IMG/VR virus record: IMGVR_UViG_2541047955_000001
Span: 1 to 42,920 of that record
Strand: one strand, 5' to 3'
DNA length: 42,920 nt
From: a virus
Lineage: Duplodnaviria > Heunggongvirae > Uroviricota > Caudoviricetes
In this document: positions 2,620-30,049 of the stretch, one piece after another
Numbering within the stretch: the first letter of the stretch is position 1
How the letters are laid out: every line of letters starts with the position of its first letter
Made by a program: the position numbers and the translations under genes
The notes under the pieces: model-generated
Told to the model about the DNA's origin: nothing
The model's input: the letters and a program-made list of their open reading frames with translations, nothing else
Databases searched by the model: none

Positions 2620-2843
2620 GCTTTAACCTCCTGCACATCAACCGCATTCACCGCGCTATTGTGTCTCACAGACTTAAGCGCCGCAATGCAGTCTGACTTG
2701 CAAATGCGATATGGGCTTTTAGGTTTATCTGGATTTATCTTTGCGGCCTGAAGTCGTCCACTTCGTATCCACTGCGTGATAGTTCCTTTGTCTACCTTCA
2801 GATACGACGCTGCCTCTTCACGAGTGAAGATTTCTTCTTCCAC
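2496..2843 (-). CDS. xis: excisionase
   Basis: 115 aa, immediately upstream of and overlapping int; HTH-like N-terminus; size matches P22 Xis. Confidence 0.7.
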   Translation of the reverse strand: MEEEIFTREEAASYLKVDKGTITQWIRSGRLQAAKINPDKPKSPYRICKSDCIAALKSVRHNSAVNAVDVQEVKACQSNYAVARGTAISSRQMDQELDALLKHRTKGKRKNFTIV

Positions 2844-2932
2844 CTGGAGTCTCCATTTATTGAGTTGGTATTATTGCGGTAGGTCTGGATATCTTGAGAA
2901 ATGAACAGTCCTCATCGAGTGTGAGACTGTGG

Positions 2933-3277
2933 TTAGTCCTTGCGTAGTTCGCTAATTCTTCTGTAAGTCTCTGGTGCTTTGTTTCCGTGTATCTTCATTT
3001 CAGACTTCAACAGAGCAACAAGGGAATTCCATTCGTTGAGGATTCCTTTGAATGCCGGAACGCGCTTTGCAACCTTGTCGAATGAATCTCTGATTTCTGG
3101 AATCTGCTCAACAAGTGCAACGCATCGTCGGAAATCGGCTGCGTCATGTGGAGCGCCGAAGTGATGACCATAGATATTCTTTTTCAGTCCACATGCGATT
3201 GAGGCAAGAGTTGCGCTACTGATGCCGACATCGCCAGTCGATTGCCATTTCAAAACCTTCATAGCCAAATCTGACAT
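2933..3277 (-). CDS. hypothetical early-left protein
   Basis: 114-aa ORF in the leftward operon; no recognised motif. Confidence 0.5.
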   Translation of the reverse strand: MSDLAMKVLKWQSTGDVGISSATLASIACGLKKNIYGHHFGAPHDAADFRRCVALVEQIPEIRDSFDKVAKRVPAFKGILNEWNSLVALLKSEMKIHGNKAPETYRRISELRKD

Positions 3278-3289
3278 TTCTTGTCTCCA

Positions 3290-3316
3290 ATAAAAAAACC
3301 GCCATCAGGCGGCTTG
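3290..3316 (-). terminator. intrinsic terminator (minus strand)
   Basis: Minus-strand hairpin GCCGCC-TGAT-GGCGG followed by T6. Confidence 0.6.
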
Positions 3317-3472
3317 GTGTTCTTTCAGTTCTTCAATTCGAATATTGGTTACGTCTGCATGTGCTATCTGCGCCCATATCATCCAGTGGTCATAGCAGTC
3401 GTTGATGTTCTCTGCTTCGATAACTCTGTTAAATGGCTCTCCATTCCATTCACCTGTGACTCGGAAGTGCAT
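3305..3472 (-). CDS. small hypothetical protein (55 aa)
   Basis: Not in ORF track (<60 aa); MHFRVTGEWNGEPF...; GGAGA-type RBS 5 nt upstream; flanked by terminators. Confidence 0.4.
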   Translation of the reverse strand: MHFRVTGEWNGEPFNRVIEAENINDCYDHWMIWAQIAHADVTNIRIEELKEHQAA

Positions 3473-3489
3473 TTATCATCTCCATAAAA

Positions 3490-3545
3490 CAAAACTCGCC
3501 GTAGCGAGTTCAGATAAAAGAAAACCCGCACTCGGCGGGTTCGCA
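3490..3545 (-). terminator. two tandem intrinsic terminators (minus strand)
   Basis: Minus-strand hairpins CCCGC-CGAGT-GCGGG+TTTTCTTTT and CTCGC-TAC-GGCGAG+TTTTGTTTT. Confidence 0.55.
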
Positions 3546-3820
3546 TTCGTTCAAATTGCGTTTACTTCTTGGCGTTCTGCTCATCCATATCGATATACCA
3601 TGGGTTGCTTCCCTTGGGCATGTTTAACGACTGCTCGCGATAGTATCTGATGCGCTCCATGAAATATTCGCGTGAGTGCTCAGGTTGCTATCATGATACC
3701 TGCTCAGTGATAACAGGTATGTTAAGGCGCTCTCTGTACTCCATGCCTGATGCTGCAAGGTCAACGTTTACCTTGTTCTGTTTTTCTTTCGATTTCTCGG
3801 CGATGTTATGCCTGACATTG

Positions 3821-4063
3821 TCAACCCGCCTCCTTCTGAACATAACGGTTATAAATCAGTCCCTGAGGGCCATAAGGAAGCGGGATGTGCAACTCCTCTG
3901 GTTCAGAAACTATCCATTCCCCGGCCATCTCGGCTGGAGAGGTAATGATAAGTTGTTTGCTAATAAAAGGACCACTCCTCTCAACAACAAGCTTACCATC
4001 TTCATTAATAAAAGCTTGGATGTCAGGTGTGCTTCCACACTTGGTGATGCAGCGTTTGAACAT
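3821..4063 (-). CDS. hypothetical protein
   Basis: Track ORF 3821-4105; start placed at internal Met with GGGGGA-type RBS; the overlapping plus-strand ORF looks antisense-like. Confidence 0.4.
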   Translation of the reverse strand: MFKRCITKCGSTPDIQAFINEDGKLVVERSGPFISKQLIITSPAEMAGEWIVSEPEELHIPLPYGPQGLIYNRYVQKEAG

Positions 4064-4189
4064 TTTGTGTCCCCCCATTTTATGTACGGGGTAATTATAA
4101 CACATTGAAATATAGTAATATTTGACGTAGATTTCTTTTGATCTATAAGCGATTTTTTAATGCTTTTAAGTTATAAATACTTGTTTTCA

Positions 4190-4951
4190 TCACCCATCTT
4201 GCTGCGGTGCTACTATTGAAAAGTACTCACACCCTTTAGCCCAAATAGTTTTGATAGTTGTCCAACTGACTGGAACCTTGATTTCGATTCTCCCGCTGCC
4301 GTCACAAGTTTCGCAATCATCATCACCAAAGCATTCCGGGCAGCTTATAAACGTAGTTTCTGAAAATTCACCGGATAGCACACCCTTAGCGCCGTTCTCA
4401 GCGGTTAGTTTCTTCGGCACTATAACCCAACCATCCGGAGTTACCGGAGAGTTGCCATTTATATCGAAGTTTGGCTCTGCGTCCTGAACCAGGAGGATGT
4501 AACCATTCTTGGCAGTATCAAGTTCTAACGCCTCGGTGACGGTGCCGAAATAGCGATTACCTAAATCAGCATCACAAGTGCTTACATCAATGGAAACTTC
4601 CATGCCTTCGATTAATTCTGCCAAGTTGTAAGCTTGGCTTACAGGTTCGGCTTCCAGTTCTGCTATGCGCTTATTTGCTGCTTCCAGCTCATCCAGCAGC
4701 GCCAAGACGGTAGCAGGATTGGCTGCGGCGATGAATTCAGCATTGGCCTGCTGTTCCATTTGGAAATCTTCATCGAAACCGCTTTCAGGATGCGCTCCTT
4801 CAATTCTGCAAATGGGAATATATCCAACAACGTCACGATGAATTAGCGCATCATCACAATCAGATCGGCTCTCTCCATATTCGAGCGACCACACACCACA
4901 CGTTGCTTTCTCTGCCTTTTCACGCAGTGCCTGATAGTCAATCTTGCTCAC
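4190..4951 (-). CDS. Ead/Ea22-like protein
   Basis: 253 aa; central coiled coil LLDELEAANKRIAELEAE typical of Ea22-like proteins; C-terminal CPECFGDDDCETCDGSG Cys motif. Confidence 0.6.
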   Translation of the reverse strand: MSKIDYQALREKAEKATCGVWSLEYGESRSDCDDALIHRDVVGYIPICRIEGAHPESGFDEDFQMEQQANAEFIAAANPATVLALLDELEAANKRIAELEAEPVSQAYNLAELIEGMEVSIDVSTCDADLGNRYFGTVTEALELDTAKNGYILLVQDAEPNFDINGNSPVTPDGWVIVPKKLTAENGAKGVLSGEFSETTFISCPECFGDDDCETCDGSGRIEIKVPVSWTTIKTIWAKGCEYFSIVAPQQDG

Positions 4952-7511: not shown

Positions 7512-8480
7512 TTAGTAGGTTATTTTTGTTGCGAATACTTCGCCTTTTACGATGGCTGTTATGATATTTTTAGCAACATCTTCTGATGCACCAACCTTGA
7601 TAAGGTCAGCAAGTATTTTGTTATTTACTTCTTTCCGGTGAGCTTTATCCTTTGCTCTACGCTCTTCTTCTTCCTTGATTCTTTTTTCTTCTGCTATTCT
7701 GGCTTGCTCTTTTGCTTCAGCCTCGCGACGGATTCGTTCAGCCTCCTCCTGTGCTTTTCTGCGTTCTGCTTCAATTGCTGCCTGCTTTTCTCTTTCAGCT
7801 CGTTCTGCTGCCTCTTTTGCTTCGCGCTGTGCTCGTTGCTCGGCTTCAATGCGTTCACGCTCTGCACGTTCCGCTGCGGCCTTAGCTTCTGCTTCTCGCC
7901 TTGCTGCTGCTTCAATTTCGGCTTTTGCCTTTGCTTCGGCTTCAGCTCTGGCTTTCTCTTCAGCTTCTCTTTTTAAGCGTTCTTCATGCTCTCGCTTTTC
8001 CTGCTCCGCTTTGAGTCTTGCCTCTTCTCTTTGGCGGTCAAATTCGCGATCCATCAAAATCGCTATTTCATGGTCAGACTCAATTTGCTTTGCGAGAGCT
8101 TCAGCTGCTGCCTTAGCTTCTTCTTCGGCTTTAATCCGCGCCTGTTCTTCCTCATAATCAGTAAGAGGCTGGCGTGCCTTGGCTTTCAGTTCATCAAGGC
8201 GATCGCGCACTGTCTTGCGGTTGGCATCAATTAGCTTTGGAATTTCCTTCAGTTCAGCAACAAGGTCTTTTCCAAGACCATCGAGATATGTTTTCGTCTG
8301 CGCAACTTTATACGCCAGAGAAGCGATCTCCTTTCTGCCCTTTGCCGTTGTGATATCAGGCACAAAGGACATAACTTCACGTTCAACCTTTTGAAGGATT
8401 TCTTCAATCTGGTCGGCAGACTGAAATACAGTCATTGCATTTGCTTTTTCAATAACAACTAAATCTGTTACTTCACTCAT
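7512..8480 (-). CDS. hypothetical coiled-coil protein with Glu/Arg/Ala/Lys-rich low-complexity region
   Basis: Track ORF 7512-8534; start at MSEVTDL with GGAGGA RBS; ~170-aa tract of AEAKAKAEIEAAARREAEAKAAAERAER-type repeats. Confidence 0.6.
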   Translation of the reverse strand: MSEVTDLVVIEKANAMTVFQSADQIEEILQKVEREVMSFVPDITTAKGRKEIASLAYKVAQTKTYLDGLGKDLVAELKEIPKLIDANRKTVRDRLDELKAKARQPLTDYEEEQARIKAEEEAKAAAEALAKQIESDHEIAILMDREFDRQREEARLKAEQEKREHEERLKREAEEKARAEAEAKAKAEIEAAARREAEAKAAAERAERERIEAEQRAQREAKEAAERAEREKQAAIEAERRKAQEEAERIRREAEAKEQARIAEEKRIKEEEERRAKDKAHRKEVNNKILADLIKVGASEDVAKNIITAIVKGEVFATKITY

Positions 8481-8614
8481 ATATCCTCCATCAAAAAAAT
8501 TGCCCTCACATCGGAGGGCAAAGAAGATTTCCAATAATCAGAACAAGTCGGCTCCTGTTTAGTTAAGAGCGACATTGCTCCGTGTATTCACTCGTTGGAA
8601 TGAATACACAGTGC

Positions 8615-9721: not shown

Positions 9722-10066
9722 CTATGACCATTTTTTATTTGGATTTCGTTGGTGAGCGTGATTAACAACTCTGTGCATTACATCCTCATATTTTTCATCT
9801 TCAATTTTTTCGACATCGCGAGGAAATGGTGTTGCTAATGCTTTGTCAACTTTATCCATTGGGTCTTCATTAATCTTATATTCAGGACCGTCATCTATAG
9901 CATTAAATCCAGGTGTTACACCGTTTTTTAATGCATATGCTATCCTCTTTTCCCATCTCGCTATTCTCCTCCTGTCTCGAGATGTAAGACCTCTATCAGA
10001 TACTTTTCTGTTTTGTCCGCGGTCAGGATTAACATAAATAGTCTTTTTCACCATAAGCATACTCAA
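9722..10066 (-). CDS. hypothetical basic protein
   Basis: 114-aa ORF, highly charged, immediately downstream of the N-like gene. Confidence 0.5.
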   Translation of the reverse strand: MSMLMVKKTIYVNPDRGQNRKVSDRGLTSRDRRRIARWEKRIAYALKNGVTPGFNAIDDGPEYKINEDPMDKVDKALATPFPRDVEKIEDEKYEDVMHRVVNHAHQRNPNKKWS

Positions 10067-10368
10067 TAAGCACCGTACGGTAGTTTACTGTACAATTTTA
10101 TTTTTTGGACTGCATGTATTTTGTTTCCTAATGGGTTTGAATCTTTGTAATAAATACTTCTATTTTTTCGAACGACTTCTTCTTTCTTCTTGCAGCAAAG
10201 GATTCCTAGTGATGCTGCTTTGTCTGCTTTGACGCAACCAGAGAGCTTTAGCGCAATTTTTCGCGCCAGTGCTTCATTACTGCGTCGCTCGGCAATAAGT
10301 TCTGCTCTGCGAGCTTTGTAGCGGCTTTTTGCCGTACCTTTGGATTCTTTCCAGACAATGGTTACCAT
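10063..10368 (-). CDS. N-like transcription antiterminator (P22 gene 24 position)
   Basis: Start at MVTIVW with AAAGGAGA RBS; N-terminal arginine-rich motif GTAKSRYKARRAELIAERR; first gene of the leftward operon next to c2. Confidence 0.55.
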   Translation of the reverse strand: MVTIVWKESKGTAKSRYKARRAELIAERRSNEALARKIALKLSGCVKADKAASLGILCCKKKEEVVRKNRSIYYKDSNPLGNKIHAVQKIKLYSKLPYGAY

Positions 10369-10660
10369 GATGGTCTCCTTTAAGTGGCTTTGGCGCATGA
10401 CGCGTCGAGGTGCTTATCTTCTCGATCGCTGTCTTGCAGCTGCAATTCGCGCCATCCCCAAAACCACTCAAGTTCTGGTCTCAACGGTTAGGTTGAGAGT
10501 CCGTCGATGTTAAAGAGCCTGCCAATCTGTTCCGTTTGGCTTCCAGCGTCCTGCTGATGGCTTAAATTTAAGACTTCTTAATTTATTGGTCAAGTGCATT
10601 TTTGAAGAAAACTTAATTCTATGGGCGTGAATTTAGTTTGTCTTTGATTTTTAACGGGAA

Positions 10661-10682: not shown

Positions 10683-11333
10683 TTAAGGAAGGTTTGCTAG
10701 CTTGGCATCAACGACAACGCCAATGATTTTACAGTTCCCATTGATTTCAATCATTGGGTATTGTGGATTGAGTGGTTTCAGGAATTTTCTACCGGCATCA
10801 ATAACTAACTTTTTGAATGTCGCCTCGTTTTCTCCTTCAAGTTTGGCGACTACCAGCTTTCCATTACGTGGTTCGACTTCTGGGTCGACGAGAATAATCA
10901 TCCCCTCAGGAATACTCAGTCCTGCCGGGGCAGTCATTGAATCGCCTTTAACGTCGAGCCAAAAAGAGTCTTCAGAACAATCTACCGTTGTGTCGTACCA
11001 GTTATCTATTGCACGCCTATGATATGGCTCTACAGCTTCCATCCAACATCCTGCGCTTACCCAACTAATTAGAGGATACGAACCTCTTGGATCATGCCTG
11101 CTGTGATAGGCAATGTTTGAAAGACTATCCTCTCCTTTCAACAGGTAATCAGGGGAGCACTGCAAAGCCTTGGCTAAGGCCAATAGGTTTTCGCCATTGG
11201 GCTCAGTTTCAGATCGCTCCCATTGGGAAATAGCAACATTAGACACGCCAACCATCTTGCCAAGGGCAGCCTGCCTAATCTTGAGTTCTTTTCTGCGAGC
11301 GCGAATACGCTCACCCATCAGTTGTGTATTCAT
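10683..11333 (-). CDS. c2: C2 repressor (CI analogue, LexA/S24-like C-terminus)
   Basis: 216 aa, near-identical to P22 C2 as recalled (MNTQLMGERIRARRK...IIGVVVDAKLANLP). Confidence 0.95.
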   Translation of the reverse strand: MNTQLMGERIRARRKELKIRQAALGKMVGVSNVAISQWERSETEPNGENLLALAKALQCSPDYLLKGEDSLSNIAYHSRHDPRGSYPLISWVSAGCWMEAVEPYHRRAIDNWYDTTVDCSEDSFWLDVKGDSMTAPAGLSIPEGMIILVDPEVEPRNGKLVVAKLEGENEATFKKLVIDAGRKFLKPLNPQYPMIEINGNCKIIGVVVDAKLANLP

Positions 11334-14395: not shown

Positions 14396-14421
14396 CCATC
14401 TACATCACTGAGCTAATAACA

Positions 14422-14448
14422 GGGGCTATTTACACAGTAGCCCTTTTT
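14422..14448 (+). terminator. intrinsic terminator (tR2-like) before the nin region
   Basis: Hairpin GGGCTA-tttacacag-TAGCCC followed by TTTTTTATT. Confidence 0.55.
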
Positions 14449-14476
14449 TATTGGATTAAGAACGAGGGGGATCCTG

Positions 14477-17344: not shown

Positions 17345-17529
17345 ACGCCACAATTCAAACGATACCAGAGCTTCTTATCCAGACACGAGGCAATCAGACC
17401 GAAGTGGCGAGGATGCTTTCCTGCGCAAGAGGAACGGTGCTCAAGTACAACCGAGACAGCAAAGGCGAACGTCACGTAATAGTTAACGGCGTCCTGATGG
17501 TCAAACAGGGCAAGAGAGGAAGACGATGA
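17341..17529 (+). CDS. ninH: NinH
   Basis: 62 aa; GNQTEVARMLSCARGTV HTH resembles lambda NinH. Confidence 0.7.
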   Translation: MNATIQTIPELLIQTRGNQTEVARMLSCARGTVLKYNRDSKGERHVIVNGVLMVKQGKRGRR

Positions 17530-18014
17530 GCATAAGAGAACTAAACCTCACCAAAGAACAGCACGAGTGGCTGAATGGCTGGCTTGAACTGTGGGGCGCA
17601 TGGGTTTATTCAGGTCGTCTGGAAAAGCGCATGAGCAGCGTAATAGCGAAGTTCATGGAGAGCGTAGAGCCGGGAAGAGTTATGACAAGGCCAATGTGTA
17701 ATGATGATGATGGAATGTTGATTTCTCAGGTCGTCGATTCCGTCATGTACATTGACAAGAAAGCCTTTGGAATCCTCCTCAGCTACTACGCTCATGGCTC
17801 TTCCAAGCACGCCATTGCATCTTACTATCATCGCGTCGCAAGACCTCGCAAGATGTTATGCCGGGGCGGCGGGCGCATTCAAAAACCATCGCTCGCAACC
17901 TGTCGACGGGAAGTTGACGAAATCCTCAATGCCTCGTTGTTTATGATTTACCCGGTTCTGGATAGTGCGTTTAAAAACCGGAAACGTGTAGAGAAAATTA
18001 AACATGTAGCATAG
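17526..18014 (+). CDS. late-gene antiterminator Q (P22 gene 23 type)
   Basis: 162 aa; last gene of the nin operon, immediately upstream of a promoter/terminator and the lysis cassette. Confidence 0.7.
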   Translation: MSIRELNLTKEQHEWLNGWLELWGAWVYSGRLEKRMSSVIAKFMESVEPGRVMTRPMCNDDDGMLISQVVDSVMYIDKKAFGILLSYYAHGSSKHAIASYYHRVARPRKMLCRGGGRIQKPSLATCRREVDEILNASLFMIYPVLDSAFKNRKRVEKIKHVA

Positions 18015-18105: not shown

Positions 18106-18180
18106 GGGTCAGTCGTATAAAGGTCATTACGGAAGGCTGTTAACCTTCTTATCGTGGTTCGAGTCCACGCTGTCCCGCCA
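18106..18180 (+). tRNA. tRNA-like, Asn (GUU) anticodon, imperfect stems
   Basis: 75 nt ending CCA; anticodon stem GAAGG/CCTTC, loop CTGTTAA; T-loop TTCGAGT; one T-T mismatch in acceptor and D stems. Confidence 0.45.
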
Positions 18181-18185
18181 AATAT

Positions 18186-18261
18186 GCTGGTTTAGCTCCA
18201 ATGGTAGAGCGGTCGCCTTGTAAGCGAATGGGTAGCGGTTCAAGTCCGTTAACCAGCACCA
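18186..18261 (+). tRNA. tRNA-Thr (UGU)
   Basis: 76 nt; 7-bp acceptor stem GCTGGTT/AACCAGC; D stem GCTC/GAGC; anticodon loop CTTGTAA; T-loop TTCAAGT; 3' CCA. Confidence 0.6.
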
Positions 18262-29096: not shown

Positions 29097-30049
29097 TGGC
29101 TGATTCGAATCTCAATGAGCCGGTAACAATTCAGGCTACACGACTCGATACATCAATCCTTCCACGCAATATCTTCTCACAGTCGTATCTACTTTACGTT
29201 ATCGCACAGGGCACTGATGTTGGTAACGTGGCTAACAAGGCCAACGAAGCAGGGAAGGGGGCTTATGATGCACAGGTGAAGAATGATGAGCAGGATGTCA
29301 CCCTTGCAGACCATGAATCCAGAATTGAAGCTGCTGAAGCAACTCTCATCAATCATGAAAATAGAATTGCAGCAGCGGAAAGCACTCTTGCAGATCATGA
29401 AACAAGGATTACGGCTGCTGAAACAGAGCTGGCTGATCACGAGACGCGAATTGCTGCCAATGAATCTGAGTTAGCAAACCATGATGCGCGCATAACTCAG
29501 AATACAACTGATATCGACGCACTTGATACCAGGCTCACAGCGGCAGAGGGAAGTATTTCGACGCTACAAAGCACAGTTGGTGATCACTCAACAAGAATAT
29601 CTGCGCTTGAGTATGCCACCACGCGCAAGAAATCAGAGGTTGTTTACTCAGGAGTATCAGTAACCATTCCAACAGCGCCGACCAACCTTGTTAGCCTACT
29701 GAAAACGCTCACGCCGTCATCCGGCACGTTGGCACCATTCTTCGACACCGTTAACAACAAGATGGTTGTGTTCAACGAGAACAAAACCTTGTTCTTCAAG
29801 CTGGCGATCGTCGGGACGTGGCCCAGCGGAACAGCCAACAGGTCAATGCAGCTAACCTTTTCCGGCTCTGTTCCTGACACACTGGTAAGCAGCCGCAACT
29901 CGGCGACAACGACCGATAACATCCTGTTAGCTACGTTCTTCAGCGTGGATAAAGACGGCTTTCTTGCCACAAATGGCAGTACGTTAACCATTCAGTCGAA
30001 TGGTGCGGCGTTTACTGCCACAACCATCAAAATCATTGCGGAGCAGTGA
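29096..30049 (+). CDS. tail needle gp26 with extended C-terminal domain
   Basis: 317 aa; conserved needle N-terminus [25 protein letters not shown]; coiled-coil repeats; ~90 extra C-terminal residues vs P22 gp26. Confidence 0.8.

What the first reader, a model, noticed from the sequence alone, without database searches (positions are those of the whole stretch)
3290..3660. Small ORFs insulated by strong intrinsic terminators in the early-left region
A 55-aa ORF (3305-3472) with a good RBS is bracketed by a terminator at 3290-3316 and two tandem terminators at 3490-3545. A further ~33-aa ORF lies just upstream (about 3553-3654). Genes insulated by terminators on both sides in an antiterminated operon are typical of morons expressed from their own promoter in the lysogen.
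Basis: seen in the sequence. Interest (0 to 1): 0.4.

Follow-up and report, generated by a model that had tools for sequence, protein, structure and literature searches.

The report
Phage lambda orf55 with flanking terminators
The 55-codon gene between three transcription terminators is the already described orf55 cassette of phage lambda, present in about 40% of complete E. coli genomes, and the neighbouring 33-codon reading frame is only the tail of a broken DNA-polymerase theta gene, so the finding is real but ordinary.

Summary
On the minus strand there are three strong intrinsic terminators (3542-3522, 3511-3492, 3315-3296) around a 55-aa ORF (3472-3305) with a GGAG ribosome-binding site.

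It is not new. The ORF is 100% identical in protein to phage lambda orf55 (lambdap35) and phage 434 ORF55. The same three hairpins were predicted in lambda as t3/t4/t5 (PMC4195576), and GenBank annotates tL4 at the upstream-hairpin position in 434 and HK022. The t4-orf55-t5 unit occurs in 2,178 of 5,426 complete E. coli genomes.

The "33-aa ORF" (3660-3562) is not a gene. It lies in the same frame as a 50-aa ORF that matches DNA polymerase III theta, and two adjacent stops (TGA TAG) separate them. It is the C-terminal remnant of a theta/HOT-like pseudogene.

The moron reading is only partly supported. orf55 plus t5 does behave as a cassette: it is precisely absent in two related loci, with the junction in an 11-12 nt T-tract + SD repeat. 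No promoter fits in the 19 nt between t4 and the start codon, and the literature places orf55 under pL.

Most likely orf55 is a delayed-early gene reached by N-antiterminated read-through. The terminators would then block unmodified transcription just upstream of the excision/integration genes. The biochemical function of Orf55 is unknown; the published T7 Gp2 analogy is weak.

The parts
3522..3542 (-). Upstream intrinsic terminator hairpin 1, with its T-tract running to about 3512. It sits at the position of lambda t3 and the tL4 of 434 and HK022, but with an unrelated stem sequence that belongs to the theta-gene module.
   Evidence: -12.4 kcal/mol. Alignment A1 shows that homology to lambda/434/HK022 begins in its T-tract. 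A hairpin is present in all 13 loci in two sequence types.
3492..3511 (-). Upstream intrinsic terminator hairpin 2 (= lambda t4). Its T-tract, 3491-3484, runs directly into the orf55 ribosome-binding site.
   Evidence: -11.9 kcal/mol, z -4.2. Nearly identical in lambda, 434 and HK022, with an A-U versus G-U change in the stem. Predicted as t4 of lambda in PMC4195576 Table 4.
3480..3483 (-). Shine-Dalgarno GGAG of orf55, 7 nt before the ATG. It is part of the repeat TTTTATGGAGA (3489-3479).
   Evidence: Sequence read. GGAG is GGCG in two related alleles, L006 and L009.
3305..3472 (-). orf55 (lambda lambdap35 / 434 ORF55 / PHROG 676): a 55-aa acidic beta-beta-alpha-beta protein.
   Evidence: 100% protein identity to lambda and 434. 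phrog_676 at 6.6e-40. Among 8 alleles, 8 codons vary only synonymously and 5 carry conservative amino-acid changes. AF2 pLDDT 90.2. Distant homologues at 36-52% identity.
3296..3315 (-). Downstream intrinsic terminator (= lambda t5). The orf55 stop codon TGA lies in its loop, and its T-tract runs 3295-3289.
   Evidence: -13.0 kcal/mol. Homology between loci ends right after its T-tract, followed by ORF114, xis or torI. Predicted as t5 of lambda in PMC4195576.
3284..3295 (-). TTTTATTGGAGA: T-tract plus the SD of ORF114. It is a near-repeat of TTTTATGGAGA at 3489-3479, and it is the junction at which orf55+t5 is present or absent.
   Evidence: orf55-less loci L008 (E. coli ERP001) and L011 (Stx2a_WGPS8) read ...GTTTTATGGAGACAAGAAATG.
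2933..3277 (-). ORF114 (434 ORF114, PHROG 1229), function unknown. It is the next gene downstream, before the xis-like HTH gene.
   Evidence: 3.2e-51.
3562..3843 (-). DNA polymerase III theta (HolE / P1 HOT-like) pseudogene. It has in-frame stops TGA (3693-3691) and TAG (3690-3688).
   Evidence: Pfam PF06440 at 3.4e-15 on the 50-aa part. phrog_1105 profile positions 4-42 match the 50-aa ORF and positions 55-79 match the 32-aa ORF. One continuous frame. RefSeq annotates it as a pseudogene in every genome fetched. Intact homologues have Arg at the TGA codon.
3821..4063 (-). 80-aa gene of unknown function (PHROG 9613) that overlaps the start of the theta pseudogene.
   Evidence: RefSeq CDS WP_000476264.1. 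phrog_9613 at 3e-51.
4094..4102 (-). Candidate extended -10 promoter TGTTATAAT, in an AT-rich gap (32-33% GC), 30 nt upstream of the 80-aa gene's ATG. A lead only.
   Evidence: Only match in the window, with 1.16 expected by chance. Sequence read. GC dip.

Best explanation
The locus is the lambda-type orf55 cassette with its terminator cluster (tL4-type), lying at the distal end of the N-antiterminated early-left (pL) operon just upstream of the excision/integration genes.

Shown:
- orf55 is a real protein-coding gene, identical to lambda lambdap35.
- Three canonical intrinsic terminators flank it on the coding strand.
- The mosaic breakpoints between phages fall in the T-tracts of the outer hairpins.
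- orf55 plus t5 is gained or lost at an 11-12 nt T-tract + SD repeat.
- The upstream '33-aa ORF' is the tail of a theta (HolE/HOT-like) gene killed by a nonsense mutation, with a second one in this copy.

Inferred:
- After induction or infection, RNA polymerase modified by the N-like protein reads through t3, t4 and t5, and orf55 is translated from the long pL transcript using its own SD.
- In the repressed prophage, or for any polymerase that is not N-modified, the tandem hairpins stop transcription before it reaches orf55, ORF114, xis and int. They therefore insulate the excision module.
- Orf55 itself is a small acidic beta-beta-alpha-beta protein. It most plausibly acts by binding a host protein early in lytic growth. 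Lambda genetics place it in the 'bin' region that blocks host replication initiation. Its target is unknown.
For: Identity with known elements:
- ORF55 is 100% identical in protein to lambda NP_597778 and 434 AAA67903.
- The DNA alignment with lambda, 434 and HK022 covers t4, orf55 and t5.
- GenBank annotates t-L4 / tL4 at the upstream hairpin in 434 and HK022.
- PMC4195576 Table 4 lists lambda t3, t4 and t5 with these sequences.

Terminators are real:
-.
- All three hairpins are retained in every related locus despite stem substitutions (A-U versus G-U) and two unrelated t3 sequences.

orf55 is coding:
- Mostly synonymous or conservative variation.
- Homologues down to 36% identity.
- pLDDT 90.

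Cassette behaviour:
-.
- The unit is present in 2,178 of 5,426 complete E. coli genomes.
- It lies next to four different excision/integration contexts.

Operon context:
- N-like, cI-like, cII, O and Q genes.
- Seven of the 14 strong terminators lie on the coding strand of the early-left operon.

Literature:
- orf55 is described as under pL control (PMC5575149).
- It is part of the region implicated in inhibiting host replication initiation (PMC9239242 citing Sergueev 2002).

Theta pseudogene.
Against: - Termination and read-through at these hairpins were not measured here. I found no open-access paper with experimental data for them; the 2014 paper only predicts them.
- I could not read the lambda ribosome-profiling paper. 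The review I read cites ribosome-profiling confirmation for the conserved orf60a-ea22 block, not explicitly for orf55, so translation of orf55, and its absence in the lysogen, rest on secondary statements.
- The insulation role is an inference from position only.
- In two alleles the orf55 SD is GGCG, so expression may vary.
Confidence: 0.78

Rival explanations
1. One reading: orf55 (and the small ORF) are morons, transcribed from their own promoter in the repressed prophage and insulated from the operon by terminators.
For: - orf55 has its own terminator and shows presence/absence polymorphism between otherwise collinear phages.
- It is very widespread in E. coli prophages.
Against: - There is no sigma-70-like promoter between or overlapping t3/t4 and the ATG (and inspection). 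Only 19 nt separate the t4 stem from the ATG.
- The only -10-like hexamer (GATGAT) would start transcription inside the ORF.
- The composition is not foreign.
- The lambda literature assigns orf55 to pL.
- The small ORF is a pseudogene fragment with no SD.
Confidence: 0.07
2. The tandem hairpins t3/t4 are primarily the terminators of an independent upstream unit: extended -10 promoter at 4094-4102, then the 80-aa gene, then the theta pseudogene, then t3/t4. That unit, not orf55, would be the moron-like element expressed in the lysogen. This is compatible with the best explanation for orf55 itself.
For: - TGTTATAAT is the only TGNTATAAT in the window. It is on the coding strand, in an AT-rich gap, 30 nt before the ATG.
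- The t3 hairpin is specific to the theta module and differs from lambda's t3.
- The block is shared at 98-100% identity by about 90 E. coli genomes in prophages at three or more attachment sites.
Against: - One such match is expected by chance in a window this size (1.16).
- Homology between loci continues upstream through the gap into the preceding gene, so the promoter is not a module boundary.
- There are no expression data.
Confidence: 0.2
3. Orf55 is a T7 Gp2-like inhibitor of host RNA polymerase, as modelled by Donaldson 2021 (PMC8614690).
For: - The topology is the same small beta-beta-alpha-beta fold.
- Gp2-family proteins appear in BFVD at E 0.04-0.07.
- Orf55 is acidic, as Gp2 is.
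Against: - No BFVD hit reaches E <= 0.001.
- There is no sequence-profile match to any PDB chain.
- R45, aligned by the 2021 paper with a functionally essential Gp2 arginine, is not conserved in distant family members.
Confidence: 0.1
4. The 32-aa ORF is an independent small gene, or the theta gene is still functional through UGA read-through.
For: - The single in-frame TGA allele is shared by about 90 genomes.
- UGA is the leakiest stop codon in E. coli (general knowledge).
- PHROGs holds families made of the two halves, phrog_10131 and phrog_29833.
Against: - This window has a second stop (TAG) immediately after the TGA.
- Another lineage has Arg at that codon but a C-terminal frameshift.
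- There is no SD before the ATG at 3660.
- RefSeq calls it a pseudogene in every genome fetched.
Confidence: 0.03

Closest known systems
Phage lambda orf55 (lambdap35, NP_597778; lambda 29118-29285) with predicted terminators t3, t4 and t5 of the exo-xis region
   Same: - The protein is 100% identical.
- t4, the SD, orf55 and t5 are collinear and about 96% identical in DNA.
- The position is the same: the last accessory gene before the excision module.
   Different: - In lambda the upstream neighbour is ea8.5 and the downstream neighbour is xis. Here they are a theta pseudogene and ORF114 followed by an HTH_17 xis-like gene.
- The t3 hairpin has an unrelated sequence.
Phage 434 ORF114-ORF55-tL4 (GenBank M60848) and HK022 tL4 (X51962)
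   Same: - The order is the same: tL4 hairpin, t4, ORF55, t5, ORF114.
- DNA identity is 96%.
   Different: - 434 and HK022 have the lambda-type tL4 stem and lambda-type xis/int.
- 434 also has a t'I terminator after ORF114, which this window lacks.
Morons of lambdoid phages (Juhala, Hendrix and colleagues, 2000; cited from my own knowledge)
   Same: - A single extra gene with its own terminator.
- It is present or absent between otherwise collinear genomes.
   Different: - No promoter.
- No compositional difference from the flanks.
- It lies in the early operon rather than the late operon.
- It is reported as expressed from pL.
DNA polymerase III theta (E. coli HolE) and phage P1 HOT (PF06440)
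   Same: The 50-aa and 32-aa ORFs together align over the whole theta profile, and the closest intact prophage homologues are about 64-76% identical.
   Different: The gene is interrupted by TGA at a conserved Arg codon, plus TAG in this copy, so it is a pseudogene.
T7 Gp2 RNA polymerase inhibitor
   Same: A small acidic beta-beta-alpha-beta fold.
   Different: - No sequence similarity.
- A weak and non-specific structural match.
- The key arginine is not conserved in the Orf55 family.

Membership tests
Lambda orf55 / PHROG 676 | Sequence identity to lambda lambdap35 and 434 ORF55 | tested here: met
   100% over 55 aa; phrog_676 at 6.6e-40.
Lambda orf55 / PHROG 676 | Flanked by the t4 hairpin upstream and the t5 hairpin overlapping the stop codon | tested here: met
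   Alignment A1; hairpins present in all loci.
Lambda orf55 / PHROG 676 | Located between the accessory (exo-xis type) genes and the excision/integration module of the pL operon | tested here: met
   Gene order.
Intrinsic (Rho-independent) terminator | GC-rich stem, 3-8 nt loop, immediately followed by a U-tract on the transcribed strand | tested here: met
   8-bp stems with 4-5 GC pairs, loops of 4-5 nt, T-rich tails; -11.9 to -13.0 kcal/mol; enrichment over shuffles.
Intrinsic (Rho-independent) terminator | Termination of RNA polymerase in vitro or in vivo | not testable with these tools
   No experimental data were found for these sites. PMC4195576 gives predictions only.
Moron | Own promoter upstream of the gene | tested here: not met
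   No promoter-like site in the consensus scan. Only 19 nt lie between the t4 stem and the ATG. This is sequence evidence only.
Moron | Own terminator downstream | tested here: met
   t5 at 3315-3296.
Moron | Present or absent between otherwise collinear phage genomes | tested here: met
   L008 and L011 lack orf55+t5 precisely.
Moron | Expressed from the repressed prophage | not testable with these tools
   Needs RNA or Ribo-seq data from a lysogen. The lambda ribosome-profiling paper is not held.
Moron | Base composition distinct from the neighbouring genes | tested here: not met
   GC 43.5% against 44-48% in the flanks.
DNA polymerase III theta / HOT (PF06440) | Match to the family profile | tested here: met
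   PF06440 at 3.4e-15; phrog_1105 on both halves.
DNA polymerase III theta / HOT (PF06440) | Uninterrupted reading frame of about 76-93 codons | tested here: not met
   In-frame TGA and TAG. RefSeq annotates a pseudogene.
T7 Gp2-like RNAP inhibitor | Specific structural similarity to Gp2 | tested here: inconclusive
T7 Gp2-like RNAP inhibitor | Conservation of the beta-3 arginines needed for RNAP binding | tested here: not met
   R45 is replaced by V, E, H, N or D in distant Orf55 homologues, and N43 takes the place of the other arginine.
T7 Gp2-like RNAP inhibitor | Binding to the RNAP beta' jaw and inhibition of transcription | not testable with these tools
   A biochemical assay is needed.

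The most novel reading that the evidence does not exclude
orf55 plus t5 is a discrete [SD-gene-terminator] cassette that moves between prophages by recombination at the 11-12 nt T-tract + SD repeat. In addition, Orf55 is made at a low level in the lysogen, from terminator read-through or a cryptic start, and acts there as an acidic inhibitor of a host replication or transcription protein. That would make it a promoter-less moron with a host-directed function.
Probability: 0.08. Interest if true: 0.4.

Novelty: already known. Interest (0 to 1): 0.12.

Why it matters
As found, it matters little. The gene, its position and its flanking hairpins are already described for lambda, 434 and HK022, and the cassette sits in about 40% of complete E. 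coli genomes.

Three points still deserve attention:
- No function is known for a gene this widespread. Lambda genetics place it in the region that blocks host replication initiation.
- Phage mosaic junctions fall exactly on the terminator T-tracts and SD sequences. This illustrates concretely how short regulatory motifs serve as recombination joints.
- Short ORFs next to pseudogenised genes, here the theta tail, are easily mistaken for small genes.

Tried and rejected
- Rfam at gathering threshold and at E <= 1 on 2800-4300 found no sRNA family. Only sub-threshold rsmX and isrK noise appeared, so an sRNA reading of the hairpins was dropped.
- Pfam and NCBIfam gave nothing for ORF55, ORF114 or the 80-aa protein.
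- PHROGs gave only 'unknown function' families for them.
- Megablast of 3520-4200 against the phage collection found no match. The theta module was found only in E. coli chromosomes.
- A literature search for tL4 returned nothing relevant. The search for tL3 returned only Red-plasmid papers.
- The lambda ribosome-profiling paper (PNAS 2013) is not held, so orf55 translation in the lysogen versus after induction could not be checked.
- lambdap35 was 'not tested' in the CRISPRi essentiality map.
- An 'ORF55' described as anti-Avs in a 2025 preprint is an unrelated DNA ligase of phage DruSM1.
- P0121, an apparently intact 93-aa theta, has Trp at the TGA codon. I read this as translation with a different genetic code, not as an intact allele.
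- The direct-repeat tool missed the T-tract + SD repeat because of its 1-nt indel. It was found by reading the junctions.
- A possible SD-sequestering extension of the t4 stem appears in the MFE fold but not in the centroid fold, so it was not pursued.
- Synonymous versus non-synonymous counts on the theta halves rest on too few substitutions to be informative.

Full report
**Context.** The window is a lambdoid prophage integrated beside proA and a tRNA-Thr gene (tRNA at 1369-1441).
- On the minus strand it carries an integrase (1459-2619) and an HTH_17 xis-like gene (2496-2843).
- Further right are Ea22-like, DUF7446 and DUF2737 genes, an Erf recombinase and an anti-RecBCD gene.
- Next come an N-like antiterminator (10063-10398, -) and a Nun-like gene (9722-10066, -).
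- It also has a cI-like repressor (10683-11333, -), cII, O, a DnaB-like helicase and Q.
- The finding therefore lies at the distal end of the leftward early operon, which is transcribed on the minus strand toward int.
- RefSeq holds a 100% identical copy in E. coli AHB29, NZ_OZ547246.

**Observation.** The three hairpins are the three best terminator-like sites in the first 8 kb, and all are on the coding strand.
- They fold at -12.4, -11.9 and -13.0 kcal/mol.
- With stricter criteria of my own (stem of at least 7 bp with at least 4 GC pairs, and at least 6 T in 8), the whole window holds 14 sites. Forty dinucleotide shuffles gave 0.9 +/- 1.0.
- No shuffle had three sites on one strand within 300 nt.
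- Seven of the 14 lie on the coding strand of the early-left operon, as expected for an antiterminated operon.
- ORF55 (3472-3305) has GGAG 7 nt before its ATG. That SD follows directly on the T-tract of the second hairpin.
- The ORF55 stop codon lies in the loop of the third hairpin.
The one correction is that the small upstream ORF is 3660-3562 (32 aa).

**Identity.** Megablast against phages found 196 records that match ORF114, ORF55 and the hairpins at 90-99% identity.
- The GenBank record of phage 434 (M60848) annotates ORF114, ORF55 and a terminator 't-L4'. The HK022 record (X51962) annotates 'tL4' at the upstream hairpin.
- Lambda has the same 55-aa gene, lambdap35, at 29118-29285, between ea8.5 and xis.
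- The three proteins are 100% identical. The DNA alignment covers the second hairpin, the SD, the ORF and the third hairpin.
- Bloch et al. 2014 (PMC4195576, Table 4) list exactly these hairpins as predicted lambda terminators t3, t4 and t5.
- The exo-xis literature names the gene orf55 and describes it as under pL control (PMC5575149; PMC3824215).
- The gene is included in the region implicated in blocking host replication initiation (PMC9239242 citing Sergueev 2002).
- The t4-orf55-t5 segment is present in 2,178 of 5,426 complete E. coli genomes, with up to four places in one genome.

**orf55 is a real gene.**
- Among eight distinct alleles, 8 variable codons are purely synonymous. Five carry conservative changes (N/D, N/S, I/L, D/E).
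- A profile search of 1.84 billion representative proteins found only 53 clusters. These include full-length members at 36-52% identity that keep W9, N10, F14, E19, E21, D22, D25, W33 and A39.
- AlphaFold2 gives a confident beta-beta-alpha-beta model with pLDDT 90.2.

**Function of Orf55.** Donaldson (PMC8614690) proposed an analogy to the T7 Gp2 RNA polymerase inhibitor. I tested this.
- Foldseek against BFVD gives no hit at E <= 0.001. Gp2-family proteins appear at E 0.04-0.07.
- A sequence profile finds nothing in the PDB.
- R45 was aligned by Donaldson with an essential Gp2 arginine, but it is not conserved in the distant family members.
- The Gp2 analogy is therefore not excluded, but it has no specific support.
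- What is conserved is an acidic patch (E19, E21, D22, D25) at the strand-helix junction. That fits a small protein-binding inhibitor, but the target is unknown.

**Cassette structure.** Comparison of 13 loci shows where homology breaks.
- Upstream, homology to lambda, 434 and HK022 begins in the T-tract of the first hairpin. The stem itself is a different sequence here (GAACCCGC.../...GCGGGTT) from that in lambda (ATCCTCGC.../...GCGGGGAT). It travels with the theta module.
- Downstream, homology ends right after the T-tract of the third hairpin. What follows is ORF114 (this window, 434, HK022), xis (lambda, L006, L007) or torI (L005, L010).
- Two loci with different first hairpins, L008 (E. 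coli ERP001) and L011 (Stx2a_WGPS8), lack orf55 and t5 precisely. They read ...GTTTTATGGAGACAAGAAATG(ORF114).
- The joint lies in TTTTATGGAGA (3489-3479), which recurs as TTTTATTGGAGA (3295-3284).
- orf55 plus t5 is therefore a unit gained or lost at an 11-12 nt T-tract + SD repeat.
- All three hairpins fold in every locus, and their stem changes are pair-compatible (A-U versus G-U).

**Promoter question.** The moron model needs a promoter, and I found no evidence for one.
- The consensus scan finds none near orf55.
- The t4 stem ends 19 nt before the ATG.
- The only -10-like hexamer (GATGAT) ends 2 nt before the ATG, so it could not give a translatable mRNA.
- The GC content of orf55 equals that of its flanks.
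- The one good promoter-like element lies further upstream. It is an extended -10, TGTTATAAT, at 4094-4102 (-), in a 32-33% GC gap 30 nt before the ATG of an 80-aa gene.
- That element is the only such match in the window, but about one is expected by chance. Homology between loci continues through it. It is only a lead that t3/t4 might also terminate an independent upstream unit.

**The '33-aa ORF'.**
- Translating 3852-3553 (-) gives one frame...NIPVITEQVS**QPEHSREYFMERIRYYREQSLNMPKGSNPWYIDMDEQNAKK*.
- The first 50 codons match DNA polymerase III theta (PF06440 at 3.4e-15; phrog_1105 positions 4-42). The 32-aa ORF matches positions 55-79 of the same profile.
- Intact prophage and plasmid homologues read ...AREQPEH... 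at the site of the stops.
- About 90 E. coli genomes carry this allele at 95% identity or more, in prophages at three or more attachment sites: thrW, dsdC/torI and ybhC.
- All six related loci I read in full (L004-L009) have TGA at the Arg codon. Only this window and AHB29 also have TAG at the next codon.
- A related E. coli protein (P0122) has Arg at that codon but a C-terminal frameshift.
- RefSeq annotates the gene as a pseudogene in every genome I fetched.
- There is no SD before the ATG at 3660.
- The small ORF is therefore a remnant, not a gene.

**Mechanism and confidence.**
- Shown: the identity of the elements, the coding status of orf55, the quality and conservation of the hairpins, the cassette joints, and the pseudogene.
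- Inferred from lambda biology: polymerase modified by the N-like protein reads through the three hairpins after induction, and orf55 is translated from that transcript.
- Also inferred: unmodified polymerase stops at t3/t4. This keeps stray transcription out of orf55, ORF114, xis and int in the lysogen.
- The terminator array always lies immediately upstream of the excision module, whatever the integrase type. That fits an insulating role, but it could equally reflect recombination at these joints.

**Verdict.** This is a correct observation of an already known, very common element. The moron interpretation holds only for the cassette behaviour, not for an own promoter. The second ORF is an artefact of pseudogene decay.

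Noticed in passing
window 3562-3843 (-), stops at 3693-3691 and 3690-3688: A prophage theta (HolE/HOT-like) gene carries an in-frame TGA at a conserved Arg codon. The allele is shared by about 90 complete E. coli genomes, in prophages at three or more attachment sites. This window and E. coli AHB29 add a second stop (TAG) at the next codon, and another lineage has a frameshift instead. A pseudogene seems to be spreading by mosaic exchange.
   Followed up: yes
window 4094-4102 (-), gap 4064-4189: The only extended -10 motif in the window (TGTTATAAT) sits in a 32-33% GC intergenic gap, 30 nt upstream of an 80-aa gene of unknown function (PHROG 9613). It could drive an N-independent unit ending at the tandem terminators.
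   Followed up: partly
window 3479-3489 and 3284-3295 (-); also 14421-14455 (+): The motif 'terminator T-tract + TTTTAT(T)GGAG' recurs after t4, after t5, and after a strong plus-strand terminator at 14421-14445 (tail TTTTATTGGA). T-tract/SD joints may be general recombination points in this phage group.
   Followed up: partly
L006 and L009, orf55 SD: Two related alleles have GGCG instead of GGAG in the orf55 ribosome-binding site, and in L009 orf55 is also cut by an IS3 element. This hints that orf55 expression is dispensable in some lineages.
   Followed up: no
window 9722-10066 (-) and 10063-10398 (-): A gene matching the 'Nun-like transcription termination factor' family (phrog_5632, 4.8e-71) lies directly downstream of, and overlaps by 4 nt, a gene matching 'anti-termination protein N-like' (phrog_271). 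Having both in one prophage is unusual relative to lambda (N only) and HK022 (Nun only).
   Followed up: no
window 7512-8534 (-): A 340-aa protein with a very long charged Glu/Ala/Lys/Arg-rich repeat region (…EAEAKAKAEIEAAARREAEAKAAAERAERERIEAEQRAQREAKEAAERAEREKQ…). It has no Pfam match, only PHROGs of unknown function.
   Followed up: no
window 18106-18258 (+): Two tRNA genes lie just downstream of the Q antiterminator gene (17526-18014), the arrangement typical of Stx-type lambdoid phages.
   Followed up: no
window 2933-3277 (-): ORF114 (434 ORF114, PHROG 1229) is a conserved gene of unknown function. In some prophages it follows the tandem terminators directly, using the same SD joint as orf55.
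   Followed up: partly
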